The translations under genes were made by a program, and so were the position numbers. The notes under the pieces were generated by a model. The model had not been told where the DNA came from. It saw nothing but the letters and a program-made list of their open reading frames with translations, and did not search any database. DNA of 64,000 nucleotides from Minisyncoccota bacterium (GTDB taxonomy: Bacteria > Patescibacteriota > Minisyncoccia > Phycocordibacterales > CSBR16-193), in assembly GCA_040905715.1 (NCBI GenBank), contig JBBDRA010000003.1:135075-199074 (forward strand), written 5' to 3'. Positions 11,799 to 34,750 of the stretch are shown here, piece after piece. How positions within the stretch are numbered: the first letter of the stretch is position 1; each line of letters starts with the position of its first letter.

Positions 11799-11881
11799 GG
11801 AGGGGTCGGATAATGGCTATTCCACCGCTTTCGAAAAGCGGCGCCTTCACGGGCTTGCGGGTTCGAGTCCCGCCCTCTCCG
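11799..11881 (+). tRNA. tRNA-Ser (anticodon CGA), long variable arm; apparent integration site of the downstream AT-rich island
   Basis: GGAGGGGTCGGATAATGGCTATTCCACCGCTTTCGAAAAGCGGCGCCTTCACGGGCTTGCGGGTTCGAGTCCCGCCCTCTCCG. Anticodon arm CCGCT-TTCGAAA-AGCGG, T-arm GCGGG-TTCGAGT-CCCGC. Confidence 0.75.
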
Positions 11882-11950
11882 CAGTAAAAATTTAGTATCG
11901 GAAGACCCGAATACCCTTATTTTTAGGGATTTCTAGAAACCGATGAAAGT

Positions 11951-17274: not shown

Positions 17275-17383
17275 ATATTATTATTTGACACCATAATCAT
17301 ATCGTGTTAATTTGTACATAGATTCATTATATGTTGTTCTGATTTTAAGATCTGTTCTTCACATCCAAAAACGGAGGTAAGTC

Positions 17384-18073: not shown

Positions 18074-18153
18074 AATACAGAGCCTTTTTTTATAATTTAT
18101 AATTTATTTTAAAGTCTGTATACTGATATGTAAGCATACGGAGCTAAATTTTT

Positions 18154-19380: not shown

Positions 19381-19446
19381 TCAATCTATCGCAACATGTT
19401 TAATTATTAATAAACACCAGACGAAATATGGATAATAAAATTAGGT

Positions 19447-21120: not shown

Positions 21121-22431
21121 TTACGCCATCAAATCAACTTTCTTGTCTTTTACTGTTAACCTACTCTTAAGACAATTCATCAGCTCTCGCTTCTCATCGT
21201 TGGTACCCTCCTGCAGAAGGTACTTTGCATACGTCCTCATATCAAACTCTTTTATTTTTGATTCATCTTCATGCAAGATTCCTTTCCTAAATTTATTGAA
21301 TCGTTTCAGTTCATCTTCAAACTTCTTTTGTATACCTAGTTCGCTGACACTCACTTTATCAATGATTCCAATTAGTTGTTTTATTAAATCTTCTTCACGC
21401 AGATACGGATTTTTGCAGTGTCGATCTCGTGATCTACCACAACCGTAGTAGATGTATTTGGCGGTCGTGCCGTCACGGAGTTTTTTGTATTTCTCTTCAG
21501 CTGAGATACCTGATCCGCACTTGCCACAGAGCATGAGTTTGGTGAAGGCAAACTCCTTATGCTCTCTAACAATCTTATCTCGTTTCAAATGCTCTTGAGC
21601 TTCGTCAAATAGCTCTTTAGTGATGAGCGGTTTGTGCTTTCCTTGATACCAGTTGCCGGAGTCTCGTGGATACTCAAAGACACCGTAATAGAACGGATTG
21701 TCGAGCAGTCGGTAGATACCGCTAAGAGTAAGTGGTTTGTTTCCTCTGGTATGGAAATTAAGTTCAAATCGAAGCCAATGATACAACTTTCTGCCAGACC
21801 ATTTATCGTGTGCCACCTTCTCAAACATCTGCCTTACCACATGACCGCGCTCAGGATCGACTAGTAACAAACCTTTCTTGTCGGTTCGTTTTTGGTTGAG
21901 ATATCCTAATGGTGCCACCGTCGGCCAGTATCCCATCTCACAACGTGCCCTGAGTCCTCGCTTCACGTTAATGCCTCGGTTATCGTTCTCAAGCTTGGCC
22001 TGTGAGCCAAGAATCATTAGGAGGAACTTCTCATTCGGATTATTAGTGAACACCTGTCCATATGTTCGTATCTCATGGAGTTTCCCTTGGTCCATTAGAT
22101 CAACAACTGCGCCGAGGTCTCCGGCATTCCTCGACAGACGATCAGGTGCCCATGCCAGAATACCGGTATACTTGCCAACCCTAACCTCATCCATCAGCTC
22201 ATTGAATACTGGCCTCTGAGCAGTATCTTTGGCTGAATGACTCTCGCGCTTAATATCTACCACTTCAAGCCCTTCACGCTCAGCCAACTGAAGCATCTCC
22301 TTGATCTGCGAATCGATTGAAAGTACCTGACGTTCTTCGCTCTCGGTACTTTTTCGTGAGTACAAGCAGTACTTTATCTTTTCTTTCGGTACTACTTGGT
22401 TTTGCTCCTTTTCTTGTACTGGTATCTCCAT
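21121..22431 (-). CDS. Large serine recombinase (resolvase-domain integrase)
   Basis: N-terminal resolvase domain YCLYSRKSTESEERQVLSIDSQ with catalytic Ser. Recombinase domain, zinc-ribbon cysteines (CGKCGS...YYGCGRSRDRHC) and a C-terminal coiled-coil. Confidence 0.9.
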   Translation of the reverse strand: MEIPVQEKEQNQVVPKEKIKYCLYSRKSTESEERQVLSIDSQIKEMLQLAEREGLEVVDIKRESHSAKDTAQRPVFNELMDEVRVGKYTGILAWAPDRLSRNAGDLGAVVDLMDQGKLHEIRTYGQVFTNNPNEKFLLMILGSQAKLENDNRGINVKRGLRARCEMGYWPTVAPLGYLNQKRTDKKGLLLVDPERGHVVRQMFEKVAHDKWSGRKLYHWLRFELNFHTRGNKPLTLSGIYRLLDNPFYYGVFEYPRDSGNWYQGKHKPLITKELFDEAQEHLKRDKIVREHKEFAFTKLMLCGKCGSGISAEEKYKKLRDGTTAKYIYYGCGRSRDRHCKNPYLREEDLIKQLIGIIDKVSVSELGIQKKFEDELKRFNKFRKGILHEDESKIKEFDMRTYAKYLLQEGTNDEKRELMNCLKSRLTVKDKKVDLMA

Positions 22432-22542
22432 TACTCCAATGAATGACAGAATAGGTTTGAGGAGTCCAGAGCGTCCCGAGTTGATAAGAAGTTGATAAAA
22501 ATCACTTTACTTTATTGGTAATTAATGGTAAGTTAGAAGTTA

Positions 22543-22746
22543 ATGGATAATGAATCTAAAAACTTGGAAGATTTGCCTGAGATATTGACCCTGCGACAAG
22601 CCGCAAATGTTCTTAATTGTCACCCTAATACCTTGAGAAACTGGGATAATGAAGGAGTACTTAAGGCAATTCGTATCGGTCGCCGGAAAGATCGACGATA
22701 TAAAAAAGAGGATGTGTTTAAAATTTTGAAACAAAACAATGGCTAA
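22543..22746 (+). CDS. Excisionase/MerR-like HTH DNA-binding protein (candidate recombination directionality factor)
   Basis: 67 aa. ILTLRQAANVLNCHPNTLRNWDNEGVLKAIRIGRRKDRRY is an Xis/HTH_17-type motif. Divergent from the recombinase gene, and it overlaps the mod start. Confidence 0.65.
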   Translation: MDNESKNLEDLPEILTLRQAANVLNCHPNTLRNWDNEGVLKAIRIGRRKDRRYKKEDVFKILKQNNG

Positions 22747-24406
22747 AGATTACTCAAAAATGAATAAGGAAGAATTACTGAATGAGATTACGAAATTAGA
22801 ATCTCGCAAGTCTTATGGTTTGGTGTGGGAAGATAAGCCAGAGGATGTTGTTGAACAGTGTAAAACTCAAATACCGATTCTTACTGAAGTTAAAAAATAT
22901 TTTATCGAAAAAGATTTGGATAAGCCGACAAATCTTTTGATCGAAGGAGATAATTATCATGCTTTAGCAACATTGAATTATACTCATAGAAAACAAATTG
23001 ACATTATTTATATTGACCCACCGTACAATACTGGTGCAAAGGATTGGAAATACAATAACGATTATGTGGATGAGAATGATTCATTTAGACATAGTAAATG
23101 GTTGTCGATGATGAACCATCGGTTACGTTTATCTAGAAACTTACTTACGGACGAAGGCGCCTTAATTTGCGCGATTGATCATAATGAACAAGAAGCGCTG
23201 GGCGTAATGTTGGATGAGCTTTTTCCAGAAAGAGAGAAAGTTTGTGTAACCATCATACATAATCCTGGTGGGATTCAAGGAAACAATTTTTCTTACACAC
23301 ACGAATATGCATACTTTGTTTTCCCTAAAAATGGCACGTATATCTCAAAGGTTATTAGAGACGATGTAAAGCCTACTCCGCTTAGAGATTGGGGCGGTGA
23401 AGAATCTAAACGCGAATCTGCTAGAAATTGTTTTTACCCAATTCATGTAGATAAAGAAATGAATGTTACGGGATTTGGTGATGTGTTACCAGAAAATAAA
23501 CATCCCAAGTCTGCTGTATTAAAAGAAAAAGATGGATCAATGGTAATTTACCCCATTGACTCTGATGGAGTTGAACGTAAGTGGAGATTTGCGCGACATA
23601 CTGTTGAAAGTATTGAAGATGAACTTAGATGTGAAATAGTAAATGGTGAACCATCAATACGCCGATACAAACAAAAATATAGATGGAAAACTGTTTGGAA
23701 TGATAGTAAATACAATGCAAATGTCCACGGTACACAATATCTTGCAGGTATTATTAAGGAAAAATTCCCTTATCCTAAATCAATCTTTACAGTAGAAGAT
23801 TGTATTAAGGCCATTATTCACGATAAACAAACTGCAACCGTATTAGATTTTTTTGCTGGATCAGGTACAACTGGTCATGCGGTTTTGAAACTTAACGAAG
23901 AAGATGGAGGTAATCGTCGATTCATTCTTTGCACTAACAATGAGAATAAAATCGCTGAAGAAGTAACTTATCCTCGGGTTAAGAACGTTATCAAGGGGTA
24001 CGGTGACGTAGAAGGTATTCCCGCGAATCTCCGATACTACAAAACTGATTTTGTGGATGTTGAATCAGTTCACAGTGTTTCAGATCAAAAGAAAATAGAG
24101 CTTACATATAAAGCAGGTCGGATGATTGCTCTACGAGAGGACACGCTAGAGGAGACTGAGAAGAATGACTGGTGGCAAATATTTACTGACAAAAAAGGAA
24201 AAACCACAGCTATTTATTTTAAAGAGGATAAAGAAAAACTTGATGATCTTGTAAAGAAAATCAGTAAATCTGAATCTGCTGTTCTTTACATATTTAGCTG
24301 GGGTAAAAATGAGTATAAGAACGAGTTTACTGGCCATAAAAACATACGGGTCGAAGATATCCCAGAACCGATCCTTGAGGTATACAAGGAAATTAACAAG
24401 AAATAA
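22739..24406 (+). CDS. Type III restriction-modification Mod subunit (N6-adenine/N4-cytosine DNA methyltransferase, beta class)
   Basis: Motif IV IDIIYIDPPYNT precedes motif I VLDFFAGSGTTGHAV. It lies directly upstream of a helicase-nuclease Res gene. Confidence 0.8.
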   Translation: MAKDYSKMNKEELLNEITKLESRKSYGLVWEDKPEDVVEQCKTQIPILTEVKKYFIEKDLDKPTNLLIEGDNYHALATLNYTHRKQIDIIYIDPPYNTGAKDWKYNNDYVDENDSFRHSKWLSMMNHRLRLSRNLLTDEGALICAIDHNEQEALGVMLDELFPEREKVCVTIIHNPGGIQGNNFSYTHEYAYFVFPKNGTYISKVIRDDVKPTPLRDWGGEESKRESARNCFYPIHVDKEMNVTGFGDVLPENKHPKSAVLKEKDGSMVIYPIDSDGVERKWRFARHTVESIEDELRCEIVNGEPSIRRYKQKYRWKTVWNDSKYNANVHGTQYLAGIIKEKFPYPKSIFTVEDCIKAIIHDKQTATVLDFFAGSGTTGHAVLKLNEEDGGNRRFILCTNNENKIAEEVTYPRVKNVIKGYGDVEGIPANLRYYKTDFVDVESVHSVSDQKKIELTYKAGRMIALREDTLEETEKNDWWQIFTDKKGKTTAIYFKEDKEKLDDLVKKISKSESAVLYIFSWGKNEYKNEFTGHKNIRVEDIPEPILEVYKEINKK

Positions 24407-24408
24407 TT

Positions 24409-26688
24409 ATGTTTACACTTAAAACCTTTCAAGAAAAAGCGATAGCTGAATTACGGAAAAACTTCCTAGAACTTTGGAGTACAGGGAATAAGAGGCTAGA
24501 ACTTATATTCAAATCACCAACTGGATCAGGAAAAACAGTAATGACTGCACAGTTTTTGCGTGACTTAACTGGTGATCCACAATTCAACGCTGACAAAGCA
24601 TTCGTGTGGTTTACCTTTAACGAGGAATCATACGAACAAAGCAAGAAGAAGCTTTTTAAATATTATGGCGGTGCCGGAGAAATCGAACTCCTTGATTTAA
24701 ATGATCTTACCCGTAACGCCAAACTGGAGAAAAACAGTGTCTTCTTTATTAACTGGCAGAAGGTAAAGTCTTCTACTAAAGATGGTCGTAAGTTACGAAA
24801 AGACAACGAGAATGACATTACTTTTGACTCATTCATAGAAAAATCAAAAGCAGATGGTCGTGAGATTGTATTGATTGTTGATGAAGCACATCGAGATGCG
24901 AACACTGACCTTGCTCAGGAACTTATTGATCTCATTGATCCGCGCATTATTCTCAAAATTACAGCCACTCCGAAGAATGAACCGTCGTATTCTGATGTGA
25001 AAAATAAGAAGGTCGGTTTTGTAGACGTTGAGCGTAAGGCTGTAATCGAGGAAGGTTTGATTAAAGAAAAAGTTATTACCCAAACTAAGGAAGATATTGA
25101 GAAAGAGGCAAAGAGAGAAATTGACCAAGATTTATTATTGCTCGATTTAGCGTATCAAAAGCGTCTCGAGCTTAAGAAGAGTTATGAAAAGCTTGGTATT
25201 GATATTAATCCTCTTGTACTGGTCCAACTTCCCAATGATGATAAAGCTCGCAAGGAAACCTTAGATAAATCAAAGAAGGATGTCGTTCTTGATTTTCTAA
25301 AAGATAAAGGTGAAGAAGATCACAATGTTGCTGTTTGGCTTTCAAACGACAAAGAAAATTTGGATGAAATTGAAAAAAATGACTCAGAGATAAATTTCTT
25401 AGTTTTCAAACAGGCGGCTGCCACTGGTTGGGATTGTCCTCGAGCGGCTATCTTGGTGATGTACCGAGAGATTAAAAGTCCGGTCTTTCACATACAAACT
25501 GTCGGGCGAATTCTTCGTATGCCTGAAGCTATTCACTATCCAAGTCCTGATCTAAATATTGGATATCTATATACAAACTACGAGCGAAATCAGATCCTCG
25601 CTGAATACGATAAGCAAAAAGGAGAAAATCGTCCTGCGACACAGATAAGTCGACGCAAGAAAGATGTTAAACCAATCAAGCTCGACTCTGTATTTATGAG
25701 TCGTGCTGACTACAACGACCTTGGTGACTCATTCCAGAAGACATTTAAGCAAGTCGCGAATAAAGAGTTGGGTATTAAAGATGGAAATACTAAAGCACAG
25801 ATTAAGAAGACACTGAAAGAACAGAACCTAGATGTCACAGATGTGAAAGTAGAGAGTAGTCTTATTGTGGATGCTGAAATAGAAAACTACGATAATTTTA
25901 TTGAGGAACTAAGAGCAAATACGGTAGAGCTTTCAAATGAAATTTCACGTAATGATCTGGAGCGTCTCTACAATCTCCTTTGTTTCAATATCATTTCTAA
26001 ACAAGAGGATGAGAACAAGAAATTTGCTCCTGAACGTTCATGGGGAAAGTTGAAAACTGCACTCAACGTCTACTTCTCAAATATGCTAGACATCCCTCGT
26101 GAGGATTACTACAAAGTCATTGTAAATGATCTACTCCGACCAGATAGTGTATTGCGCCCTATTCTTGGGGAGACACTTGAGAAATATCGTCCAATCCGTG
26201 AAAAGGAAGTCAAAGAGAAAGCTAAGCGAACTCGACGTGATGAAGTGTTGGAAATACCACGAGAGTATCTATTCTTCACAGATCTGTATGAAGAGATGAA
26301 AGTGAAGAAGTCTGCGATGCATCCTTTCTATATTCAGAAGGAACCTGTTCAAAATGAAAATGAGTTTATCAAATATCTTGAGGCATCAAGTAAGGTCGAG
26401 TGGTGGTATAAGAATGGTGACTCTGGAAGTGAATATTTCTCAATTCCTTATTATCACGAAACAGAAAATCGTGAACGCCTTTTCTATCCTGACTGGATTG
26501 TGAAGACTAAGAACAAAGTTTGGATCCTCGATACCAAAGCTGGCTTTACTGCCGAAAGCAACGATACTCAATACAAAGCAGAAGCATTGAAAGGATGGTT
26601 AAAGGGAAAGAATAAATTTGACGGCGGTATTGTGGTGCCAGACGGTCCGAACGGGTGGAAAATTGGTGGTAAGAAATTAATTTTATAA
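24409..26688 (+). CDS. Type III restriction enzyme Res subunit (SF2 helicase + C-terminal PD-(D/E)xK-like nuclease)
   Basis: Walker A SPTGSGKTVMTAQ and DEAH box LIVDEAHRD. Late helicase motifs QAAATGWDCP...QTVGRILR. C-terminal YPDWIV...VWILDTKAG. Starts 2 nt after mod. Confidence 0.8.
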   Translation: MFTLKTFQEKAIAELRKNFLELWSTGNKRLELIFKSPTGSGKTVMTAQFLRDLTGDPQFNADKAFVWFTFNEESYEQSKKKLFKYYGGAGEIELLDLNDLTRNAKLEKNSVFFINWQKVKSSTKDGRKLRKDNENDITFDSFIEKSKADGREIVLIVDEAHRDANTDLAQELIDLIDPRIILKITATPKNEPSYSDVKNKKVGFVDVERKAVIEEGLIKEKVITQTKEDIEKEAKREIDQDLLLLDLAYQKRLELKKSYEKLGIDINPLVLVQLPNDDKARKETLDKSKKDVVLDFLKDKGEEDHNVAVWLSNDKENLDEIEKNDSEINFLVFKQAAATGWDCPRAAILVMYREIKSPVFHIQTVGRILRMPEAIHYPSPDLNIGYLYTNYERNQILAEYDKQKGENRPATQISRRKKDVKPIKLDSVFMSRADYNDLGDSFQKTFKQVANKELGIKDGNTKAQIKKTLKEQNLDVTDVKVESSLIVDAEIENYDNFIEELRANTVELSNEISRNDLERLYNLLCFNIISKQEDENKKFAPERSWGKLKTALNVYFSNMLDIPREDYYKVIVNDLLRPDSVLRPILGETLEKYRPIREKEVKEKAKRTRRDEVLEIPREYLFFTDLYEEMKVKKSAMHPFYIQKEPVQNENEFIKYLEASSKVEWWYKNGDSGSEYFSIPYYHETENRERLFYPDWIVKTKNKVWILDTKAGFTAESNDTQYKAEALKGWLKGKNKFDGGIVVPDGPNGWKIGGKKLIL

Positions 26689-26690
26689 TT

Positions 26691-27383
26691 ATGTCATCCC
26701 GTCAAGTAACAAATTGGATTTCTCTTTCTGACATGATGACAGGGTTAATGCTGGTCTTTCTCTTGATTGCTGTTTTGAGTATTGCGCAGGTTGTTGCAAA
26801 AGAAGAAGAGCGACAGGAATTATTGAATGAATATGATTTATCTAAGGAGGAAATTTACAATGATCTAGAAGATACGTTTGGAGACAAAAAAGAAGAATGG
26901 GGAATTGAGATAAGTCGAGATTTGAGCATCAAATTTCAAAATCCTGACGTATTGTTTGGTTATTTAAGTTCTGATATCTCCTCAGAATTTGAAACTATTC
27001 TAGAAGAATTTATTCCTTCGTATCTAAAGATAATAAATAAAGAAAAATATCAAGACAAAATTAAAGAAGTTCGCGTTGAGGGTCATACAGCTGATTGGAA
27101 TGATTATATGTTTACGGTTAAATTGTCTCAAGAAAGGGCAAATGCTGTATTAAGGACTATACTTAACAGTAGCTATTACAACAATTTAGATGCTAAAACA
27201 AAAGATAAAATTAAGTTTTGGTTTACAGCTAATGGACTGGGAAATGGTAGAACTTTGGACTCAGAAGGTGAGTTTACTTATTATTCCGATAAAGATATAA
27301 GCACAAACTCTCGTCGAGTTGAGTTTAGGATTGTGACAACAAGTGATGAACTAATTGAGGAGATTATCAATAGACAGCAATAG
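26691..27383 (+). CDS. MotB/ZorB-like protein: N-terminal TM with conserved Asp plus C-terminal OmpA-like peptidoglycan-binding domain
   Basis: WISLSDMMTGLMLVFLLIA parallels the MotB channel helix (W..yADfMTamMafFlv), including the protonatable Asp. The C-terminal VRVEGHTADWNDY...LSQERANAVLRTIL is the OmpA/MotB signature. Confidence 0.7.
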   Translation: MSSRQVTNWISLSDMMTGLMLVFLLIAVLSIAQVVAKEEERQELLNEYDLSKEEIYNDLEDTFGDKKEEWGIEISRDLSIKFQNPDVLFGYLSSDISSEFETILEEFIPSYLKIINKEKYQDKIKEVRVEGHTADWNDYMFTVKLSQERANAVLRTILNSSYYNNLDAKTKDKIKFWFTANGLGNGRTLDSEGEFTYYSDKDISTNSRRVEFRIVTTSDELIEEIINRQQ

Positions 27384-27389
27384 AACATT

Positions 27390-28427
27390 ATGACTTTAAT
27401 GACAATATTTATAGTGGTTTGGATTGTGCTAACAATTTACATTCCATACAAATTTAAAGAAAGAGGTATCCAAGAGATGCAAACTATTGCAACTACGTTT
27501 GGTATCCTTGGAACATTTATCGGTATTATTGTTGCTTTGTATAATTTTGATACTTCGAACATTGAAGCCGCGGTTCCATTGTTGCTCGACGGATTAAAGT
27601 TTGCTTTTGTAACATCTATTTTTGGAATGTTAACATCTTTACTTATTGGACTTTTTCCTCAAAAATTTGGACACGGTGTTGCCAATGAAGAGGGTGTAAC
27701 TGAAGACAAGGATAAATCAGAGCCAGAATTACTCGCTGAGTTACTTTCAGAAGTTAAAATTCTTAATGGGAATATATCTGGAGAAAGCGATACTACTTTA
27801 ATTACGCAAATTCAAAAAATGCGAACAAGTATTGTAGATAAGCAAGATGATCTAAATAAGGCTTTTGACAAATTTGCCGAAGATATGGTTAATAGTAATA
27901 TTGACGCTCTCGCAGAAGCTATTGAAAAAGTAATGGGTGATTTTAACACGACAGTTAATGAAAAGTTGGGCAGGACCTTTGATGATTTTAAGAAATCAGT
28001 GGAAAATCTTAATGTTTGGCAATCTGAGTATAAAGCTCAGATATTGTCTCAAACTGAAAATATGAAATCAGTTGCAGACTCACTAAGTACTACAGAAAAA
28101 AGTATGAGTGAGGTTAAAGATTCTTATCAAGAAATTGTTTCTATAAAAGAAAAATTTGATGAGCTTCTTAAAAACCTGAATGCGCAATTACAAGGTAGTT
28201 TAGATTTTGCAGACGCAATGAAAGACTTAACAACTGATCTAGAAGGATCGGGCGATGTTATAAAAGAAGAGATGAAAGAGATTACTTATGGAGCTGCTAC
28301 AGAAATGGAAAAAACAATGAATAAAACATTAGCTGATTTTGGGAGTAGTTTAGCAGATATTTCTGGAAAATTAGCGGAGAATTTTGGAAAAATGCAGCGA
28401 GCACTTGATAGTCATGAAAATAACTAA
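27390..28427 (+). CDS. MotA/ExbB/TolQ-like proton-channel protein with ~240-aa C-terminal coiled-coil tail (compact ZorA-like)
   Basis: Three N-terminal TM helices carry the MotA-family motifs FGILGTFIGIIVAL and LKFAFVTSIFGMLTSL. The remainder is E/K/L/Q-rich and predicted coiled-coil. Confidence 0.6.
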   Translation: MTLMTIFIVVWIVLTIYIPYKFKERGIQEMQTIATTFGILGTFIGIIVALYNFDTSNIEAAVPLLLDGLKFAFVTSIFGMLTSLLIGLFPQKFGHGVANEEGVTEDKDKSEPELLAELLSEVKILNGNISGESDTTLITQIQKMRTSIVDKQDDLNKAFDKFAEDMVNSNIDALAEAIEKVMGDFNTTVNEKLGRTFDDFKKSVENLNVWQSEYKAQILSQTENMKSVADSLSTTEKSMSEVKDSYQEIVSIKEKFDELLKNLNAQLQGSLDFADAMKDLTTDLEGSGDVIKEEMKEITYGAATEMEKTMNKTLADFGSSLADISGKLAENFGKMQRALDSHENN

Positions 28428-28432
28428 TATCT

Positions 28433-29245
28433 ATGGAAAAGGACGAATTTAACAATAAAATATCGGATATAGTAAGCTATTTTGATGACATTAAACAAAG
28501 AATCGGTGCTAAAGATACGGGGTTTGTGATAGTGCCAAGAGAATTGAAAACTCCAACTGGTAAATTTAATGCTGGTAAACCAATTACTGGTGCTGAATTA
28601 CAAAGAATTTCTAAAAATTGGAAATCAAAAGATCCTTTGATTGATGAGGAAGGTAATGCGTTCGTTCTTTATATACCTGATTTTACAAGTAATCATTATA
28701 GGAGAGGCTTTTCTCCAGAAAATTTACCAAAGTATCATACTTCTTGGTGTTGGACATTAGATAATATGAAGGAATCAGGAAGAATGAAAAGATATATTAA
28801 AAAGACGGATATAGAAACAAATATCTTTAAAGGGAAAAAGGATGGAGATAGAAATATTGAGAGTGTATTATATGCTTGTCAAAATTGTAGAAAAACATTA
28901 GAAGATATTTACGGAAGAAATATGTATTTTGACGTTAAAAATATGGATATGCTCAAGTTTTTCTCTTTGTACGGAAAACATTATTTATATGACCCTAAAG
29001 TGAAAAAACCTTATTCTGTAATGTATCCAAAACATTGGGATGAAATTTCAAAGAAATATAGAGAAAAAGCAAATTGGAAGTGTGATCAGTGTGGTGAGTC
29101 TTTCGCGAATAACAAAAAGGAATTAGATGTTCACCATATAAATGGAATTAAAAGTGATGTTAGGGATACAAACCTAAAAGTTTTATGTAAAAAACATCAT
29201 GCTGAACAACCTATGCATAGTCATTATAACAAAATTATAAATTAG
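28433..29245 (+). CDS. HNH endonuclease (ZorE-like)
   Basis: C-terminal HNH motif CDQCGESF...DVHHINGIKSDVRDTNLKVLCKKHHA, plus an earlier CQNCRK cysteine pair (zinc-binding). Starts 5 nt after the preceding gene. Confidence 0.7.
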   Translation: MEKDEFNNKISDIVSYFDDIKQRIGAKDTGFVIVPRELKTPTGKFNAGKPITGAELQRISKNWKSKDPLIDEEGNAFVLYIPDFTSNHYRRGFSPENLPKYHTSWCWTLDNMKESGRMKRYIKKTDIETNIFKGKKDGDRNIESVLYACQNCRKTLEDIYGRNMYFDVKNMDMLKFFSLYGKHYLYDPKVKKPYSVMYPKHWDEISKKYREKANWKCDQCGESFANNKKELDVHHINGIKSDVRDTNLKVLCKKHHAEQPMHSHYNKIIN

Positions 29246-29250
29246 TATTT

Positions 29251-30723
29251 ATGAATTTAACAAAAACAGACTTTAAAGAATACTTAATTTGCCCCAAATG
29301 GTTATGGGTAAAGAAAAAGAAACCTGAACTTGCAGTTGAGGGTGAGATGTCGCTATTCCTGAAGAAACTTATTAAAGATGGATATGAGGTTGAGGAATTC
29401 GCTCAGCAGATGTTTCCAAGTGGTGTTGAGATAACTGGCAACTCAGGTGTACTGAAAGAAAAAACTCAGGAATATCTAGAAAAAAATCAAACAATGTTTC
29501 AAGCGACTTTTGAGACAGACAGAGGCTTGTTTGCAAAGGCAGACGTTCTCGAATTTGATGAAGAAAGTGGTAAGTGGAATATCTATGAAATTAAGGCAAG
29601 TTCTTCAATCAAGACCGATCTTCAACATAATCATCTAAAAGATATTACATTTCAAACAATCGTCGCCGAAGAATCAGGGATTCCTATAAATAAAAGTTTT
29701 ATCATCCATATCAATAAGGAATACAAACGAGAGGGTGAAATAAACCCAAGAGAATTATTTGTTATAGAAGACGTCTCTAAAGATGTCCAAGAAGGTAAAG
29801 AAAAAGTAAACCAAGAAATTGAGACTGCTTTAGATTTTTTAAGTAAAGATAAAATCTCAATGGAAGGTTGTGAGTGTTTATACAAATCACACGGACAAAG
29901 ATGTGATTCATTCACAGTCTTTAACCCTAAGGTGCCTGAATATTCAGTTCATCATATCGTTGGTGGAAAGAAACTCCTCTCACTTATTGAAACTGATGTA
30001 TTTGATGTGAAAGAGATTCCAGAAGATTTTAATCTTACCGATAAGCAACAAGAAAAAGTCACACTCCAAAAAACCGGTAAGCCAATAATCGATGAAGAGT
30101 CAATCAGAGAAACGCTTTCTAATTTAACTTTCCCTCTGTATTTCTTAGATTATGAGACTTTTGGTAAGCCATATCCAATACTTGATGGATACACCTCAAA
30201 TCAGCAGATTGTATTTCAATACTCACTACATATTCTAAAGGAAGATGGTTCTTTAGAGCATCGTGAGTATTTAGCTGATGATTTTGAGAATGCCACAAAA
30301 GGACTCCTTGATCATATGAATGAGCATATTGGCCCTACAGGAACTGTTGTCGTCTGGTATGAATCATTTGAAAAAGGAAGAAATAGGGAGCTTGCTGAAA
30401 TACATTCAGAATATGCTGACTTTCTGCACAATATAAACAGCCGAATCTACGATCTAATGCTTATATTTAAAAAAGATTACCTACACCCTGATTTTTATGG
30501 GAGTGCCTCTATCAAAAAAGTGCTTCCTGTAATGCTTCCAGAATTATCCTACAAGAACTTAGAAGTTCAAGACGGAACAATGGCTATGAGCGAATGGGAG
30601 AAGATAGCTACTGGAAAAATTACAGGTGAAGAGGCAGAAGAATTACGAAAACATCTACTGGAATACTGTGAACGAGATACGTTTGCGATGGTTGAGTTGT
30701 TTAAGAAGCTACAACAATTATAA
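29251..30723 (+). CDS. Cas4/RecB-like PD-(D/E)xK nuclease with Fe-S cysteine set, fused to a C-terminal RNase-H-like domain (DUF2779-like architecture)
   Basis: N-terminal YLICPKWLW. Catalytic ADVLEFDE...IYEIKAS (D...ExK). The Cys cluster CECLYKSHGQRC together with the N-terminal Cys gives a Cas4-type 4-Cys arrangement. The C-terminal LYFLDYETF...VVVWYESFEKG resembles the FLDFET RNase-H-like domain. Confidence 0.6.
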   Translation: MNLTKTDFKEYLICPKWLWVKKKKPELAVEGEMSLFLKKLIKDGYEVEEFAQQMFPSGVEITGNSGVLKEKTQEYLEKNQTMFQATFETDRGLFAKADVLEFDEESGKWNIYEIKASSSIKTDLQHNHLKDITFQTIVAEESGIPINKSFIIHINKEYKREGEINPRELFVIEDVSKDVQEGKEKVNQEIETALDFLSKDKISMEGCECLYKSHGQRCDSFTVFNPKVPEYSVHHIVGGKKLLSLIETDVFDVKEIPEDFNLTDKQQEKVTLQKTGKPIIDEESIRETLSNLTFPLYFLDYETFGKPYPILDGYTSNQQIVFQYSLHILKEDGSLEHREYLADDFENATKGLLDHMNEHIGPTGTVVVWYESFEKGRNRELAEIHSEYADFLHNINSRIYDLMLIFKKDYLHPDFYGSASIKKVLPVMLPELSYKNLEVQDGTMAMSEWEKIATGKITGEEAEELRKHLLEYCERDTFAMVELFKKLQQL

Positions 30724-30762
30724 ATATGATGCATGTTATTGAACTTATAAATTATCTTACAG

Positions 30763-31605
30763 ATGTTTTCAAAGTTAATTTTTTTAAAAGACAAACTGTT
30801 TCTTAAAATAAGAAACAAAAAGGATGTAAGACTATACACCTTCAAATCAAAACTACTGCTATATGGAAAAAGAAATTTTAAGCAATATTTCACGATAGCA
30901 AGAGACGGAACTGTGACAGAGAGGATTCTTTTGAATGTACCTGATGTTTCATTAAGAGAAGAAATTATTTGTAAACACTACCTTTCTTTTTTAGTTAAAA
31001 ACTTAATAAAGGAACCTATCGGTATCAACTTGCTAAAAAGGGATCAGCCATGGGATTTTAGTGTTGAGCTCAGTAATGGTGATAAGTTTAATATAGAAAT
31101 CACATCAATCGCTGAAAACAAGGAGTTGTTTGAGAAATTAAAACGTGAAGAGGAGTTTGAAAAAATAGTCGCGAGAAAAAATATTTTATTGCGCGAACTC
31201 AAAAAAATCCATTTCTGGTTTCGTAACAAAAAGGCAAAACAGACCATCAATGATGCTGAAGAAAATTTTTTAAATAAAAACGATAAAGTATTGAATCCTT
31301 TTTACAATTATCCAAGCAGGATTTTCTATAGTAGTTACATAAAGAATGAGGGGGACTCTCTGAAAGATTTGATATCAGGAGCAATTAAAAGAAAGGTGTC
31401 CAAGTCTCATTTAGATAAAGATAAAACTATTTTAATAATTGATAACCGAACTATCCAATTCGGCCTGGAAGACATTTTTTGGGTAATTAAGGAGTTAGAA
31501 GTTGAGTGTGCACACATTCCTTTTCCTGAGATTTATTTCTACACAGGCCACTACTCAGATGACGATGGGAATAATGCTAGGTATTCATTCGTACCCCTTA
31601 AGTAA
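30763..31605 (+). CDS. Hypothetical protein (280 aa), possible degenerate PD-(D/E)xK-like core
   Basis: AT-rich ORF with no clear family. DFSVELSNGDKFNIEITS might be a D...E-x-(K/T) nuclease-like core. Speculative. Confidence 0.35.
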   Translation: MFSKLIFLKDKLFLKIRNKKDVRLYTFKSKLLLYGKRNFKQYFTIARDGTVTERILLNVPDVSLREEIICKHYLSFLVKNLIKEPIGINLLKRDQPWDFSVELSNGDKFNIEITSIAENKELFEKLKREEEFEKIVARKNILLRELKKIHFWFRNKKAKQTINDAEENFLNKNDKVLNPFYNYPSRIFYSSYIKNEGDSLKDLISGAIKRKVSKSHLDKDKTILIIDNRTIQFGLEDIFWVIKELEVECAHIPFPEIYFYTGHYSDDDGNNARYSFVPLK

Positions 31606-31663
31606 CCAGAAAAACATTAAAAACATGCTCACGTCCCTCAGCTATCGAGTTTTCTGAGGGGGG

Positions 31664-32278
31664 TTACCGTTTATTTCTCCTTATCTTTTTTCTATCAAGA
31701 AGTTTCTGAAGATTATCCGCCACCTCTTTAGCTCCGTCTATTTTCAATTTATCTTTTACATCATAAAACTGATCAAAGAAATCATTTATAATATGACGCA
31801 CCTCCTCGCTAGTTCGTTCTTTGGTTCCAAGTTCTTTAATTCTTTTCGATAGCTCGTGAACCAAATCTTCTTTACTTATTTTCTGTTTTTTTCTGCCTCT
31901 ATACTTTTCTATATTGGGTTCTTTATAACCACAAACCCGACATGTTTCTCCAGATTCAAGTTTGTGTGGATGAGTAACTGGATCGACATAAGTTGTACGA
32001 ACTGGTTTGTATCTCGGATTGTTGTATTGAAGCCAGAATATAATAAGGCGAGCATTTTCGTTTTTGATGCCTTTAATAACCGCTGACTCAGCCATGTCAT
32101 TTATGTTCTGCCGACCTATTTCCAATATCGCATCAGTCTGATCACGAAAGTCTTTATCATCCTTACGCCATCTGTAGTAGGTGGTTCGATCAAGGCCGAT
32201 TTTCTTACAGGCAAAAGACACAATTGGTGTCTCTGCCAATATTTGTAATAGTTTCGATTTATCACCCAACCTAGCCAT
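31664..32278 (-). CDS. Phage terminase small subunit (TerS)-like HTH protein
   Basis: N-terminal HTH PIVSFACKKIGLDRTTYYRWRKDDKDF followed by NARLIIFWLQYNNPRY. Compare the aaIFwLKNRrPExW pattern of phage TerS proteins. Confidence 0.5.
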   Translation of the reverse strand: MARLGDKSKLLQILAETPIVSFACKKIGLDRTTYYRWRKDDKDFRDQTDAILEIGRQNINDMAESAVIKGIKNENARLIIFWLQYNNPRYKPVRTTYVDPVTHPHKLESGETCRVCGYKEPNIEKYRGRKKQKISKEDLVHELSKRIKELGTKERTSEEVRHIINDFFDQFYDVKDKLKIDGAKEVADNLQKLLDRKKIRRNKR

Positions 32279-33587
32279 TAATCTTTACCCGTTTCTTACC
32301 CGTATATTTCTCCCATCTATTCAAGATCACTTCCGTATAGACATTCGATTTTTCCATGAGGAAACAACGCCTATTTAACCTATTGGCTGCGATTAAGGTA
32401 GATCCGCTTCCACCAAACGGTTCATACACCAATTCGTCTCTTTTCGTTAGTATCTTTATATACGGAATCAGTATTTCTACAGGTTTCGTGCCAAAGATAA
32501 TTCCCTGACCGCTAGATTTTTCATCCGCCGCATTATGTTCAATAAAGTCAGTTGGGCAGTACTTTTTGTTTTTTCCATATGACTCCCAGTGTGGTTTGCC
32601 GGATATAGCAAACAGAGCGGTTTCGTATTCATTTTCAACAAGTTCCCCCTCTTGTTCTAAATTAACCTCTTTGTTATCCGTACCAACCATAGCAATGTCA
32701 TACTTTGAAAAGAGTTTGTGCTTTCCGGCATACCCTTGATTTCTGTTGGGGAGATGCCAGATAAGCATATTCCTGACTTTCCAGTATTTCTCCATCTCAT
32801 TCCAGATCGTCCTGATATTTTTCCAGTTTTCATAGACAATGATAGCGAAATGCTCGTCTTGTATTTTATTCACATTCGCCATCCACTTTTCGGTAAAGTC
32901 TTCGGGGATAGATTCGGTTTCTAAGTACCTTCTGTTTTTCTTGGCTCCAAAGCCGGTGGTTGCTTCACCGTGTTTAGTCTTGCCGTGTAGGTAATCTAAA
33001 ATATATGGAGGGTCCGTCATAACCATCTGGGCTTTTTCTTTACCAAACAGTTTTGTGACATCTGCCTCTGTTGTGCTATCACCACACATTAAGCGTGACC
33101 CATCGAGATCATAGATATCTCCCTTTTTGACAGTGACTTCTTTGATATCCAGTTTTTCTAGTTCTTTTTGGAGATCAAAAAGTTCTTCTTCGTGATCTTC
33201 GTCGAAAATAATATCTAGTTCTTCGGAATCAAATCCGATGTCAGCTAGAATGGTTTCATCGAATTCTGCCAAAAGGTCATAATTAAATTCTCCTTGATTT
33301 TTGTTTAAACGAAGATTTAATTCTTTTTCTTTTTCCTCGGTTAGATCAAGAAAAACCACAGGAATAGTTGTGTGACCAAGCTCCTTACACACCTCGAGTC
33401 GAAAGTGGCCACCAATAACGACATTGGTTCTCTCTTTATTTTTATTAACAATCAACGGATCAATTGTGCCAAAACGATTGATACTCTCTTTTAATTGTTT
33501 TTTCTGAAATTCATCCCATGTACGAGGATTATATTCAGAAGCGTGAAGTAGATTTATATCTACATATTCTATTTTGATGTTGCTCAT
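32271..33587 (-). CDS. ParB-like nuclease domain fused to N6-adenine/N4-cytosine DNA methyltransferase (orphan MTase)
   Basis: N-terminal ParB/Srx domain (IEYVDINLLHASEYNPRTW...GGHFRLEVCKELG). MTase motif IV MVMTDPPY and motif I VYEPFGGSGSTLIAA. No adjacent restriction endonuclease. Confidence 0.8.
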   Translation of the reverse strand: MSNIKIEYVDINLLHASEYNPRTWDEFQKKQLKESINRFGTIDPLIVNKNKERTNVVIGGHFRLEVCKELGHTTIPVVFLDLTEEKEKELNLRLNKNQGEFNYDLLAEFDETILADIGFDSEELDIIFDEDHEEELFDLQKELEKLDIKEVTVKKGDIYDLDGSRLMCGDSTTEADVTKLFGKEKAQMVMTDPPYILDYLHGKTKHGEATTGFGAKKNRRYLETESIPEDFTEKWMANVNKIQDEHFAIIVYENWKNIRTIWNEMEKYWKVRNMLIWHLPNRNQGYAGKHKLFSKYDIAMVGTDNKEVNLEQEGELVENEYETALFAISGKPHWESYGKNKKYCPTDFIEHNAADEKSSGQGIIFGTKPVEILIPYIKILTKRDELVYEPFGGSGSTLIAANRLNRRCFLMEKSNVYTEVILNRWEKYTGKKRVKING

Positions 33588-34388: not shown

Positions 34389-34726
34389 TGTTTTGATGAT
34401 AGTTTGTTTGTATTATGAAAGCAACAGTTATATGCTCCCTCGTGTAGTATTTGTTGCATTTTTTACAAGTTACAGCCCGACCCGACCTCCTCAAAATCCG
34501 CTATACTAAAACCACCAAGAAACCCTTGTGGGGCTTGAAATAATTTATTACTTAACCCGAACTGCCCGCCGAAGAGTTTTGCGATGAGGTGGAGAGGGCG
34601 AGCGCAGTATTTTTGAAAAAAATACGTCGCGCGGACTCGAAAAGGTTCTTTAGATATTTTGTGAGCTTGCCTGCTGGCAGGCAGGGAACGAGACAAAATA
34701 TCAAAAACCTGTACTGATCCTGTAAG

Positions 34727-34750
34727 GATCGAGTCCCGCCGCCTCCGCAG
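34727..34750 (+). repeat. Direct repeat of the tRNA-Ser 3' end (attR-like)
   Basis: TCGAGTCCCGCCgcCTCCGCAG here versus TCGAGTCCCGCCctCTCCGCAG at 11862-11883, 20/22 identical in the same orientation. It is followed by a 9-bp inverted repeat CCTCCGCAG...CTGCGGAGG. Confidence 0.55.

What the first reader, a model, noticed from the sequence alone, without database searches (positions are those of the whole stretch)
22543..30723. Seven-gene composite defence operon with almost no intergenic space: Xis-like HTH, Type III Mod, Type III Res, MotB-like, MotA-like, HNH, Cas4/DUF2779-like nuclease
All seven genes are co-directional, with gaps of -8, 2, 2, 6, 5 and 5 nt. That spacing is characteristic of translational coupling in a single transcript. 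A Type III R-M pair is fused in one operon with a proton-channel-like MotAB module and two nucleases, HNH and Cas4-like. Zorya-like modules and Type III R-M systems are each known on their own, but this tight fusion suggests a functionally integrated, possibly novel defence system. The MotAB-like sensor or motor and the nucleases may act together with the restriction enzyme, or behave as linked first- and second-line defences.
Basis: partly seen in the sequence, partly recalled or inferred. Interest (0 to 1): 0.85.

Follow-up and report, generated by a model that had tools for sequence, protein, structure and literature searches.

The report
Stacked R-M and Zorya defence operon
A tightly packed row of anti-virus genes on a mobile island in an ultra-small (CPR) bacterium combines a restriction enzyme, an unusual version of the known Zorya II system and a conserved double nuclease; relatives show these are swappable modules stacked together, not one new machine.

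Summary
In detail: seven co-directional genes at 22543-30723 with gaps of -8, 2, 2, 6, 5 and 5 nt. An eighth gene (30763-31605) probably belongs too. All seven gene identifications hold: HTH_17, Type III Mod, Type III Res, ZorB, ZorA, ZorE and a Cas4-like+DUF2779 nuclease. PADLOC calls genes 4-6 as type II Zorya, a known system.

The "single integrated novel system" reading is not supported. In related Patescibacteria loci the modules swap independently:
- The R-M slot holds Type III or MmeI/Eco57I-type enzymes.
- The Zorya slot can hold an AAA_13 ATPase instead.
- zorBAE also occurs alone among housekeeping genes.
- DUF2779 is a widespread CPR gene (>2,600 homologues) into which defence arrays run in 4 of 6 independently chosen contexts; in 2 of 6 it sits in a housekeeping context.

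What appears new:
- A monophyletic CPR clade of Zorya II with inverted gene order (zorB-zorA-zorE) and a short ZorA.
- This clade is embedded in larger arrays (8/11 loci versus 0/66 canonical loci).
- The R-M/Zorya/DUF2779 triad persists in 8/8 loci of one subclade.
- The operon lies on a ~22.9-kb low-GC island bracketed by tRNA-Ser 3'-end repeats.

Verdict: a stacked defence operon and a new variant of known kinds; moderate interest.

The parts
11860..11884 (+). attL-like repeat: 3' end of tRNA-Ser(cga), left border of the low-GC island
   Evidence: tRNA-Ser at 11799-11882. The 25-nt direct repeat D7 matches 34726-34750 at 22/25 bases. GC drops from ~0.47 to 0.29-0.41 right after it.
21121..22431 (-). 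Large serine recombinase, divergent from the operon; part of a recurring mobile backbone
   Evidence: Pfam Resolvase 4.9e-20, Recombinase and Zn_ribbon_recom. Homologues at 62-74% identity lie next to the related defence arrays in L001, L003, L011, L087, L093 and L167, and at 47% in L174.
22511..22535 (+). Conserved block just upstream of the HTH start; candidate promoter or operator of the array (inferred)
   Evidence: TTTATTGGTAATTAATGGTAAGTTA is conserved upstream of the homologous HTH genes of L170 and L171, while the sequence further upstream is not. Function was not tested.
22543..22746 (+). HTH_17 / excisionase-MerR-like small DNA-binding protein, leader gene of the array
   Evidence: Pfam HTH_17 8.3e-11; PADLOC mad1 8.4e-11; TIGR01764 excise 4.6e-7. 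Homologues at 69-70% identity head arrays with different second genes in L170 (Mod) and L171 (SF1 helicase), and are absent from L169 and L174, which have the same Type III R-M.
22739..24406 (+). Type III R-M methyltransferase (Mod)
   Evidence: PADLOC MTase_III 5e-75; Pfam N6_N4_Mtase 4.9e-24. DPPY at residue 93 and FAGSGTT at residue 372.
24409..26688 (+). Type III-like restriction subunit (Res): SF2 helicase plus C-terminal PD...DxK
   Evidence: Pfam ResIII 4.2e-19; PADLOC REase_III 2.3e-15. Motifs PTGSGKT37, DEAH158, TATP185, QTVGRILR363, YPDW693 and ILDTK706. D695, T709 and K710 are invariant in five homologues. No Type III Res chain is listed among the PDB hits.
26691..27383 (+). ZorB (MotB-like stator subunit), placed before zorA
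   Evidence: PADLOC ZorB2 1e-66; NCBIfam ZorB2 1.8e-31, below its cutoff; Pfam OmpA 6.8e-6 (26.8 bits, cutoff 27.2). The transmembrane Asp14 is conserved in 98% of 161 ZorB sequences.
27390..28427 (+). ZorA (MotA/ExbB-like channel with a short helical tail, 345 aa)
   Evidence: PADLOC ZorA2 1.1e-56; Pfam MotA_ExbB 2.4e-8. G38, F43, G45, F73, S76 and G79 are 98-99% conserved in 170 sequences. Median ZorA length is 344 aa in the B-A-E clade and 422 aa in A-B-E loci.
28433..29245 (+). ZorE (HNH nuclease effector of type II Zorya)
   Evidence: PADLOC ZorE2 2.6e-43; NCBIfam ZorE 6.3e-32, below its cutoff; Pfam HNH_3 7.6e-4. H234, H235, N247, H256 and the Cys pairs are conserved.
29251..30723 (+). 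DUF2779 protein: Cas4-like PD-(D/E)xK/Fe-S nuclease fused to a DEDDy-type RNase H-fold exonuclease
   Evidence: Pfam DUF2779 2.1e-37; PADLOC Cas4 4.5e-9. D98, E113, K115, C14, C207, C209, C218, D300, E302, N396, D401, Y472 and D476 are invariant. AF2 pLDDT 91.5. Foldseek matches the N-terminal half to Cas4/RecE/MGME1 and the C-terminal half weakly to ERI2/3'hExo/RNase H. Literature: PMC3985635, PMC13621843.
30763..31605 (+). orf280: eighth co-directional gene, unknown family, possible restriction-endonuclease-like fold
31635..31660 (.). Hairpin CCCTCAG-N12-CTGAGGG between convergent orf280 and the TerS-like gene; likely end of the transcription unit (inferred)
   Evidence: Read from the sequence. 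Not flagged by the terminator scan, whose loop limit is 8 nt.
31664..33587 (-). Backbone genes of the element: terminase-small-like HTH (31664-32278) and ParB-N6/N4 methyltransferase (32271-33587)
   Evidence: Pfam HTH_Tnp_1_2 1.4e-4; PHROG terminase small subunit 4e-5; Pfam ParB_N + N6_N4_Mtase. Homologues flank the related arrays.
34726..34750 (+). attR-like repeat: duplicated tRNA-Ser 3' fragment, right border of the island
   Evidence: Direct repeat D7. No tRNA is called here. Host genes follow: a thioredoxin-reductase-like flavoprotein and FtsZ.

Best explanation
The region is a stacked, probably co-transcribed defence array (22543-31605, eight genes). It is carried on a ~22.9-kb low-GC island integrated at tRNA-Ser in a Candidatus Paceibacterota (CPR/Patescibacteria) genome. 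It is built from separable modules.

1. A small HTH_17 leader gene, probably the array's regulator.
2. A Type III R-M pair. Mod methylates host DNA and Mod-Res cleaves unmethylated incoming DNA.
3. A Patescibacteria-specific variant of type II Zorya in the order zorB-zorA-zorE with a short-tailed ZorA. By analogy with characterised Zorya II, a peptidoglycan-anchored, ion-driven ZorA5B2 complex detects infection at the envelope and recruits or activates the ZorE HNH nickase.
4. A Cas4-like + DEDDy double nuclease (DUF2779). This is a widely conserved CPR gene at which defence arrays typically end. It may process DNA ends and nicks.
5. An unknown protein, possibly with a nuclease fold.

Shown: gene identities, catalytic motifs, packing, modular exchange among relatives, and the island borders. 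Inferred: single transcript, regulator role of the HTH, every biochemical activity, and any cooperation between modules.
For: Gene identities.

Packing, and absence of predicted internal terminators.

Host: the DUF2779 protein and orf280 are each 100% identical to proteins of a Candidatus Paceibacterota MAG on a 523-kb contig.

Modularity:
- L169 has the same arrangement, with Res 90%, ZorB 87%, ZorA 81%, ZorE 83% and DUF2779 89% identical.
- L087 keeps ZorB 88% and ZorA 79% but has an Eco57I/MmeI-type R-M.
- L174 keeps Mod 81%, Res 74% and DUF2779 68% but has AAA_13 in place of ZorBAE.
- L092 has an OLD-family ATPase 3 nt upstream of zorB and no DUF2779.
- L005 has zorBAE alone between rpsI and grpE.

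DUF2779 contexts chosen without regard to Zorya: a defence array lies directly upstream in 4 of 6 (L170, L171, L174, L175) and the context is housekeeping in 2 of 6 (L172, L176).

Island: tRNA-Ser 3'-end repeat at both borders, GC profile, and a recurring serine recombinase / TerS-like / methyltransferase backbone.

Zorya II mechanism: PMC11890865.
Against: - Within one subclade of the B-A-E clade, all 8 independent loci keep an R-M and a DUF2779 gene next to zorBAE, although the R-M type changes at least twice. This could reflect selection for the combination and not mere stacking.
- The CPR clade is embedded in larger arrays far more often than canonical Zorya II: 8/11 versus 0/66 upstream, p = 8e-9.
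- Here DUF2779 lies inside the att-bounded low-GC island (GC 0.354), so it travelled with the cargo and is not a fixed chromosomal anchor.
- The context sample is small, the trees are unbootstrapped NJ, no transcript or activity data exist, and the terminator and promoter scans are E. coli-type consensus scans.
Confidence: 0.68

Rival explanations
1. The R-M, ZorBAE and DUF2779 form one functionally integrated pathway. R-M cleavage and ZorE nicking generate ends and nicks on invading DNA, and the Cas4-like/DEDDy nuclease degrades them. DUF2779 would thus supply, in RecBCD-poor reduced genomes, the DNA-processing hub that Zorya II uses in E. coli. Methylation by Mod would give self/non-self discrimination for the whole pathway.
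For: - The triad is retained in 8/8 loci of one monophyletic subclade, down to 38% ZorA and 33-36% DUF2779 identity, despite R-M type replacement.
- Junctions are 2-6 nt.
- In E. coli, Zorya II is sensitive to recD loss, and its synergy with Druantia III needs intact RecBCD (PMC13192584, section 7).
- DUF2779 has intact catalytic residues for both nuclease domains.
Against: - zorBAE occurs without an R-M or DUF2779 (L005, L092, L168).
- DUF2779 occurs without Zorya next to other cargo, or alone in housekeeping contexts.
- A DUF2779 member is quasi-essential in a minimal Mycoplasma genome (PMC13621843), which points to a general DNA-metabolism role.
- R-M systems also occur in three of the four DUF2779-terminated defence arrays that lack Zorya (L170, L174, L175), so R-M adjacency is not specific to Zorya.
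- Whether this genome has RecBCD or AddAB was not checked.
Confidence: 0.2
2. DUF2779, the HTH and the flanking recombinase, terminase-like and methyltransferase genes are backbone genes of a phage-like integrative element (prophage remnant or satellite). The defence genes are moron-type cargo in its hotspot, as in P2/P4-type hotspots. DUF2779 would be the element's own recombination or replication nuclease.
For: - Serine recombinase, TerS-like and two N6/N4 methyltransferases (plus TerL in L001 and L167) recur beside the arrays.
- The island has att-like repeats at tRNA-Ser.
- The variable cargo lies between conserved genes.
Against: - DUF2779 matches no PHROG family, and neither it nor this ZorA clade was found in IMG/VR contigs.
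- The window's island lacks a large terminase and any structural genes, and carries about 8 kb of metabolic genes.
- DUF2779 occurs without this backbone in L171, L172, L175 and L176.
Confidence: 0.1
3. The MotA/MotB-like genes are a flagellar stator or a Tol/Exb energiser unrelated to defence.
For: Pfam MotA_ExbB 2.4e-8 and OmpA-like domains are shared with those systems.
Against: - The best profile matches are Zorya-specific by 40-60 orders of magnitude.
- ZorE follows zorA after 5 nt, and the three genes are found together in 145 of the ~170 fetched loci that have a ZorA match.
- No stator or Tol/Exb partner genes lie in the annotated neighbourhood.
Confidence: 0.02

Closest known systems
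Type II Zorya (ZorA-ZorB-ZorE; PADLOC zorya_type_II; mechanism in PMC11890865)
   Same: All three components are present with strong family matches. The conserved features are intact: the ZorB transmembrane Asp, the ZorA pore motifs with a helical tail, and the ZorE HNH plus zinc-binding cysteines.
   Different: - The gene order is zorB-zorA-zorE, against zorA-zorB-zorE in 138 other loci.
- ZorA is shorter: median 344 versus 422 aa.
- Scores are far below the NCBIfam equivalog cutoffs.
- The hosts are Patescibacteria.
- The system is usually embedded in a larger co-directional array (8/11 versus 0/66).
Type III restriction-modification (Mod + Res, EcoP15I-like)
   Same: The order is mod then res. 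Mod is a beta-class N6/N4 methyltransferase with DPPY and FxGxG. Res has SF2 helicase motifs and a C-terminal PD...DxK.
   Different: Res is short (759 aa) and only weakly matches the Type III Res profiles (2e-15). No Type III Res chain is listed among the PDB sequence hits. An HTH_17 gene overlaps mod by 8 nt.
DUF2779 / UU173-family Cas4-like + DEDD nucleases (MMSYN1_0389 of JCVI-syn3.0, PMC13621843; RNase H-like family F.17, PMC3985635)
   Same: The same two-domain architecture, with the catalytic D/E/K and DEDD(y) residues conserved.
   Different: The CPR proteins keep all four Fe-S cysteines, whereas MMSYN1_0389 keeps two. Here the gene is the 3' neighbour of defence arrays. No function has been tested for any member.
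Defence hotspots with conserved flanks and variable cargo (for example P2/P4 prophage and satellite hotspots, and core-gene-anchored defence islands; recalled from general knowledge, not read here)
   Same: The conserved flanking genes are the HTH leader, DUF2779 and the recombinase/methyltransferase backbone. The cargo between them varies: Type III R-M, MmeI-type R-M, ZorBAE, AAA_13, SF1 helicase + WYL, and Type I R-M with Shedu/NERD/Zeta/Fic.
   Different: The hosts are Patescibacteria. The cargo is fused into one co-directional array with 2-6 nt junctions. The anchor gene is itself a nuclease and here lies inside the mobile island.
Druantia III - Zorya II synergy through shared DNA intermediates (PMC13192584)
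   Same: Zorya II is co-encoded with a helicase-nuclease system, and a RecB-family nuclease activity is implicated.
   Different: The partners here are a Type III or MmeI-type R-M and DUF2779, not DruHE and RecBCD. No synergy has been demonstrated here.

Membership tests
Type II Zorya | ZorA: MotA/ExbB-type membrane channel subunit with a C-terminal helical tail | tested here: met
   PADLOC ZorA2 1.1e-56 (residues 5-334 on profile 18-349 of 420) and Pfam MotA_ExbB 2.4e-8. The pore motifs are 98-99% conserved. The tail is shorter than in most canonical ZorA2.
Type II Zorya | ZorB: MotB-like, transmembrane Asp plus peptidoglycan-binding OmpA-like domain | tested here: met
   PADLOC ZorB2 1e-66. 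D14 is conserved in 98% of 161 sequences. The Pfam OmpA match is 26.8 bits, just under the 27.2 cutoff.
Type II Zorya | ZorE: HNH nuclease effector encoded with zorAB | tested here: met
   PADLOC ZorE2 2.6e-43. The HNH residues and Cys pairs are present. The gene starts 5 nt after zorA.
Type II Zorya | Usual gene order zorA-zorB-zorE (not a formal criterion of the detection tools) | tested here: not met
   The order is zorB-zorA-zorE in the window and in 18 related loci. It is A-B-E in 138 loci from other phyla.
Type II Zorya | NCBIfam equivalog score cutoffs (ZorA2 700, ZorB2 400, ZorE 600 bits) | tested here: not met
   The scores are 124.9, 110 and 110.8 bits. This is a divergent subfamily, not an equivalog of the E. 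coli-type proteins.
Type II Zorya | Anti-phage activity; 5:2 ZorAB complex; ZorE nickase activity | not testable with these tools
   Requires experiments. The reference data are in PMC11890865.
Type III restriction-modification | Mod: N6/N4 DNA methyltransferase with DPPY and FxGxG motifs, encoded immediately upstream of res | tested here: met
   PADLOC MTase_III 5e-75. DPPY at 93 and FAGSGTT at 372. The gap to res is 2 nt.
Type III restriction-modification | Res: SF2 ATPase/helicase motifs plus a C-terminal PD-(D/E)xK endonuclease motif | tested here: met
   Walker A at 37, DEAH at 158, motif III at 185, motif VI at 363, PD at 694-695 and DTK at 708-710. D695 and K710 are invariant in 5 homologues.
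Type III restriction-modification | Detectable sequence relationship of Res to a structurally characterised Type III Res | tested here: inconclusive
   PADLOC REase_III reaches only 2.3e-15. Against the PDB, the profile hits generic SF2 helicases (7clg 1.7e-11) and a Type I R subunit at 0.065. No Type III Res chain is listed.
CRISPR-associated Cas4 | PD-(D/E)xK active site with a four-cysteine Fe-S cluster | tested here: met
   D98, E113, K115 and C14, C207, C209, C218 are invariant in 37 sequences. Foldseek matches Cas4 8d3l at E 2.6e-4.
CRISPR-associated Cas4 | Encoded with cas1/cas2 and a CRISPR array | tested here: not met
   No Cas hit among the annotated neighbours. No CRISPR-like array in the window. 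This is a 'solo' Cas4-like domain fused to DUF2779.
DUF2779 (PF11074) Cas4-like + DEDD exonuclease family | C-terminal RNase H-fold DEDD(y/h) exonuclease domain after a PD-(D/E)xK domain | tested here: met
   Pfam DUF2779 2.1e-37. D300, E302, D401, Y472 and D476 are invariant. The fold matches to ERI2, 3'hExo and RNase H are weak. The classification follows PMC3985635.
MADS (methylation-associated defence system) | Multi-gene mad1-mad8 locus | tested here: not met
   Only the small HTH matches mad1 (8.4e-11). None of the other nine proteins scanned in that call (the other six operon genes, orf280, the serine recombinase and the ParB-methyltransferase) matched a mad model.
Flagellar stator / Tol-Pal / ExbBD | MotAB-like pair encoded with rotor or TolA/TonB partners | tested here: not met
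   NCBIfam MotA reaches only E 0.0018 against Zorya profiles at 1e-56. No partner genes lie in the annotated neighbourhood, and an HNH effector follows directly.

The most novel reading that the evidence does not exclude
In one Patescibacteria lineage, R-M + ZorBAE + DUF2779 would be a selected three-part pathway. The conserved Cas4-like/DEDDy nuclease would replace RecBCD as the DNA-processing hub that Zorya II (and restriction) depends on. For that reason it would act as the nucleation point around which CPR defence arrays assemble. The inverted zorB-zorA order and short ZorA tail would be adaptations of the Zorya sensor to the single-membrane CPR envelope.
Probability: 0.2. Interest if true: 0.75.

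Novelty: new variant of a known kind. Interest (0 to 1): 0.5.

Why it matters
Zorya has been characterised in E. coli-type systems, and nothing on it in Patescibacteria was found in the searchable literature. Here a distinct, monophyletic Zorya II variant is found in ultra-small CPR bacteria, which have reduced genomes and a different envelope. It is short enough (about 2.6 kb for three genes) to be an attractive minimal system for structural and mechanistic work.

The recurrent stacking of R-M, Zorya and a conserved double nuclease gives a natural test case for synergy between defence systems. It also allows a test of whether a Cas4/DEDD nuclease can stand in for RecBCD.

The DUF2779-terminated arrays could serve as a guide for finding unrecognised defence genes in CPR genomes. 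Candidates include orf280 and the unannotated 200-500-aa proteins beside DUF2779.

The practical caution is that 2-6 nt junctions in a compact genome do not by themselves indicate one integrated machine.

Tried and rejected
- **Flagellar, Tol or Exb identity of the MotAB-like pair.** Rejected on the profile scores and on the adjacent ZorE.
- **MADS system.** Only mad1 matches.
- **Viral origin.** IMG/VR scans with the DUF2779 protein found nothing. The ZorA alignment found one distant locus, L173, which was not examined. DUF2779 and most island genes have no PHROG match.
- **Sequence search of the PDB.** For DUF2779 and for Res as single sequences there were no meaningful hits. The Res profile gave only generic SF2 helicases.
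- **PHROG 'ribonucleotide reductase' label for 35878-36801.** This suggested a split gene at the island edge. Pfam shows a complete thioredoxin-reductase-like flavoprotein, so the idea was dropped.
- **SD-mediated translational coupling.** No SD-like motif lies upstream of 7 of the 8 genes. SD motifs are rare across the whole window (9/51 genes), so this neither supports nor refutes coupling.
- **Literature search for Zorya in Patescibacteria.** One incidental paper. The groundwater defensome paper does not mention Zorya.
- **Tandem AGTTGATAA repeat upstream of the HTH.** It is not conserved in L170 or L171.

Full report
**1. Observation**

All are on the + strand and all start with ATG, with gaps of -8, 2, 2, 6, 5 and 5 nt. 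An eighth co-directional ORF (30763-31605) follows after 39 nt.

A crude gene call gives 60 genes in the window, and 32 co-directional pairs lie outside the operon. Their median gap is 27.5 nt and 25% have gaps of 6 nt or less. Six such gaps in a row are therefore unlikely under independence (p about 2.4e-4).

No + strand terminator-like hairpin is predicted between 22543 and 31605. Promoter-like matches are at the level of shuffled sequence. A hairpin, CCCTCAG-N12-CTGAGGG at 31635-31660, lies between orf280 and the convergent next gene. The sequence is thus consistent with a single transcription unit. These consensus scans are weak evidence for this kind of organism.

**2. Gene identities**

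Pfam, PADLOC and NCBIfam reproduce every assignment.

| Gene | Best matches |
|---|---|
| HTH | Pfam HTH_17 8e-11; also PADLOC 'mad1' |
| Mod | PADLOC MTase_III 5e-75 |
| Res | Pfam ResIII 4e-19; PADLOC REase_III 2e-15 |
| ZorB | PADLOC ZorB2 1e-66 |
| ZorA | PADLOC ZorA2 1e-56 |
| ZorE | PADLOC ZorE2 3e-43 |
| DUF2779 protein | PADLOC Cas4 4.5e-9 on the N-terminal half; Pfam DUF2779 2e-37 |

The catalytic signatures are intact.
- **Mod:** DPPY at 93 and FxGxG at 372.
- **Res:** Walker A, DEAH, motif III, motif VI and a C-terminal PD...DTK. D695 and K710 are invariant in five homologues.
- **ZorB:** Asp14 is conserved in 98% of 161 sequences.
- **ZorA:** the pore motifs are conserved in 98-99% of 170 sequences.
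- **ZorE:** the HNH residues and the zinc-binding Cys pairs are present.

The MotAB-like pair is therefore Zorya, not a flagellar, Tol or Exb stator. The three Zorya proteins score far below NCBIfam's equivalog cutoffs, so they form a divergent subfamily.

**3. Organism and island**

The DUF2779 protein and orf280 are each 100% identical to proteins of a 'Candidatus Paceibacterota bacterium' MAG on a 523-kb contig.

The operon lies in a low-GC stretch, 0.29-0.41 against about 0.47 outside. That stretch begins right after tRNA-Ser(cga) at 11799-11882. The last 25 nt around the tRNA's 3' end (11860-11884) recur at 34726-34750 with 22/25 identity. Host genes, a thioredoxin-reductase-like flavoprotein and FtsZ, resume beyond that point. 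This is the signature of a ~22.9-kb element integrated at a tRNA gene.

The island carries:
- about 8 kb of metabolic genes;
- a nucleoside diphosphate kinase;
- a large serine recombinase;
- the defence operon;
- a terminase-small-like gene;
- a ParB-methyltransferase.

No tyrosine integrase, large terminase or structural gene was seen.

**4. Comparative genomics of the Zorya part**

I fetched 166 Zorya II-type loci from genome and metagenome collections and annotated them with iterated HMMs.
- The order is zorA-zorB-zorE in 138 loci from many phyla.
- The order is zorB-zorA-zorE in 18 loci. These are the closest relatives of the window; the named ones are Paceibacterota, Saccharibacteria and Kaiserbacteria.
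- The B-A-E group is monophyletic in NJ trees of ZorB+ZorA and of ZorE.
- Its ZorA is shorter, with a median of 344 aa against 422 aa.
- In canonical loci no large co-directional gene abuts the first Zorya gene (0/66). In the CPR clade one does in 8/11 loci (p = 8e-9). Downstream of zorE the figures are 6/69 and 7/10.

**5. Is the composite a unit?**

Contexts come, and identities.

| Locus | Arrangement | Identity to the window |
|---|---|---|
| L169 | Same arrangement as the window | Res 90%, ZorB 87%, ZorA 81%, ZorE 83%, DUF2779 89% |
| L087 | Eco57I/MmeI-type single-chain R-M in the R-M slot | ZorB 88%, ZorA 79% |
| L001, L167, L091, L011/L093 | MmeI-type R-M, then zorBAE, then DUF2779 | ZorA 65% down to 38% |
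| L003 | zorBAE, then a serine recombinase on the other strand, then DUF2779-Mod-Res | ZorA 58% |
| L092 | OLD-family ATPase-nuclease 3 nt upstream of zorB; no DUF2779 | ZorA 44% |
| L168 | AAA_13 ATPase after zorE; no DUF2779 | ZorA 44% |
| L005 (Kaiserbacteria) | zorBAE alone between rpsI and grpE-dnaK | ZorA 48% |

The eight loci that carry both an R-M and DUF2779 form one subclade. Within it the R-M type flips between sister lineages, and the ZorE tree is incongruent with the ZorBA tree. This indicates recombination between modules.

**6. The DUF2779 gene**

It has more than 2,600 homologues. The best 120 are all about 490 aa long and at least 57% identical, and every taxon name attached to them except one (a Bacteriovoracaceae MAG) is Patescibacteria. 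The ZorA clade has only a few dozen members.

Six contexts were chosen only for contig length.

| Locus | Context of DUF2779 |
|---|---|
| L170 | HTH - Mod - Res - AAA_13 - DUF2779 - Mrr |
| L174 | Mod (81% to the window) - Res (74%) - AAA_13 - DUF2779 |
| L171 | HTH - 1585-aa SF1 helicase - WYL - DUF2779 |
| L175 | Type I R-M with Shedu, NERD, Zeta toxin, NADAR and Fic/RhuM - DUF2779 |
| L172 | Housekeeping genes |
| L176 | rpoB - rpoC - dnaG - rpoD - DUF2779, syntenic with L172 |

So defence arrays run into DUF2779 in 4 of 6 cases, with varied cargo, and the gene also exists without any defence neighbour.

Structurally it is a Cas4-like PD-(D/E)xK/Fe-S domain plus a DEDDy RNase H-fold exonuclease. 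This rests on the invariant residues, a model with pLDDT 91.5 and fold matches to Cas4, RecE and MGME1, with weaker matches to ERI2, 3'hExo and RNase H. It agrees with PMC3985635 and PMC13621843. The latter reports a quasi-essential member in JCVI-syn3.0.

There is no cas1/cas2 gene and no CRISPR array nearby.

**7. Other parts**

*The HTH gene.* Its homologues, 69-70% identical, head arrays whose second gene differs: Mod in L170 and a helicase in L171. They are missing from L169 and L174, which have the same R-M. A 25-nt block directly upstream of its start codon (22511-22535) is conserved in all three loci, while the rest of the upstream region is not. I infer an array leader or regulator with its promoter or operator. 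A role as recombination directionality factor for the neighbouring serine recombinase is possible but less likely, because L171 shows no such recombinase within the 4.3 kb upstream of its HTH gene or elsewhere in the 21-kb locus.

**8. Mechanism**

The best-supported reading has four layers.
- The Type III R-M provides methylation-based discrimination and cleavage of entering DNA.
- The Zorya II variant acts as in E. coli (PMC11890865). A peptidoglycan-anchored, ion-driven ZorAB complex reacts to infection and brings the ZorE nickase to the DNA.
- DUF2779 is a general end- and nick-processing nuclease.
- The HTH controls expression.

All of these activities are inferred from homology.

The modules are independent in evolution, so they are most likely independent in function and stacked in one operon of a compact genome (confidence about 0.68).

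A real possibility, about 0.2, is that the triad is selected as a combination. It persists in 8/8 loci of one subclade through R-M replacement. In E. coli, Zorya II depends on RecD, and its synergy with Druantia III depends on RecBCD (PMC13192584). A RecB/Cas4-like + DEDD nuclease could supply that hub in reduced genomes. I could not check whether this genome has RecBCD or AddAB.

**9. Novelty and limits**

Type III R-M and type II Zorya are known kinds, and PADLOC would call both here. Four things appear new relative to the literature I could search:
- the CPR-specific B-A-E short-tail Zorya II clade;
- its systematic embedding in larger arrays;
- DUF2779 as the recurrent 3' end of CPR defence arrays;
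- the tRNA-Ser island that carries them.

The limits are these:
- The context sample is small and biased toward long contigs.
- The trees are NJ without support values.
- The R-M HMMs were built from few sequences, so R-M frequency near canonical Zorya loci was not measured.
- There are no expression or activity data.

Noticed in passing
window 11860-11884 and 34726-34750: A 25-nt direct repeat (22/25 identical) of the tRNA-Ser(cga) 3' end brackets the low-GC region. It implies a ~22.9-kb island integrated at the tRNA. No tyrosine integrase was found; the only recombinase is a large serine recombinase (21121-22431).
   Followed up: partly
window 12191-20340 (+): The left third of the island is a low-GC (0.29-0.40) cluster of metabolic genes: E1 dehydrogenase alpha and beta, an aminotransferase, two ATP-grasp ligases (one L-amino-acid-ligase-like), NUDIX, a SAM methyltransferase and a 2-hydroxyacid dehydrogenase. 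It is possibly a horizontally acquired small-molecule or peptide biosynthesis cluster in a CPR genome.
   Followed up: no
[not shown]
   Followed up: partly
window 22511-22535; L170 and L171 upstream of their HTH genes: A conserved ~25-nt block lies directly upstream of the HTH_17 leader gene in three loci whose downstream cargo differs. It is a candidate shared promoter or operator. A tandem AGTTGATAA repeat at 22479-22498 is specific to the window.
   Followed up: partly
L003/L004/L008 19006-20601: A diversity-generating-retroelement-like pair (RVT_1 reverse transcriptase plus bAvd accessory protein) lies immediately after the Type III Res gene in a Saccharibacteria locus.
   Followed up: no
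L027 9968-19911 (Poribacteria): One locus carries several ZorA/ZorB-like pairs in a row (A-B-B-E-B-A-B-A), a multi-stator Zorya cluster.
   Followed up: no
L001, L087, L167, L170, L171, L092 downstream of DUF2779 or zorE: After DUF2779 there is usually an unannotated 300-500-aa protein followed by an Mrr_cat + Zn-ribbon or a LEM-3-like GIY-YIG nuclease. These look like further defence cargo with no family assignment.
   Followed up: no
window, whole: Shine-Dalgarno-like motifs are rare upstream of genes across the window (9 of 51). This is consistent with non-SD translation initiation in this organism.
   Followed up: partly
L162 1-2981: A distant DUF2779-like gene (30% identity over a partial match) lies divergently next to a canonical-order zorA-zorB on a short metagenomic contig. 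It is the only Zorya-DUF2779 proximity seen outside the CPR clade.
   Followed up: no
window 35878-36801: The best PHROG match labels this gene 'ribonucleotide reductase large subunit' (5e-62), but Pfam shows a complete pyridine-nucleotide-disulphide oxidoreductase. The PHROG label is misleading here.
   Followed up: yes
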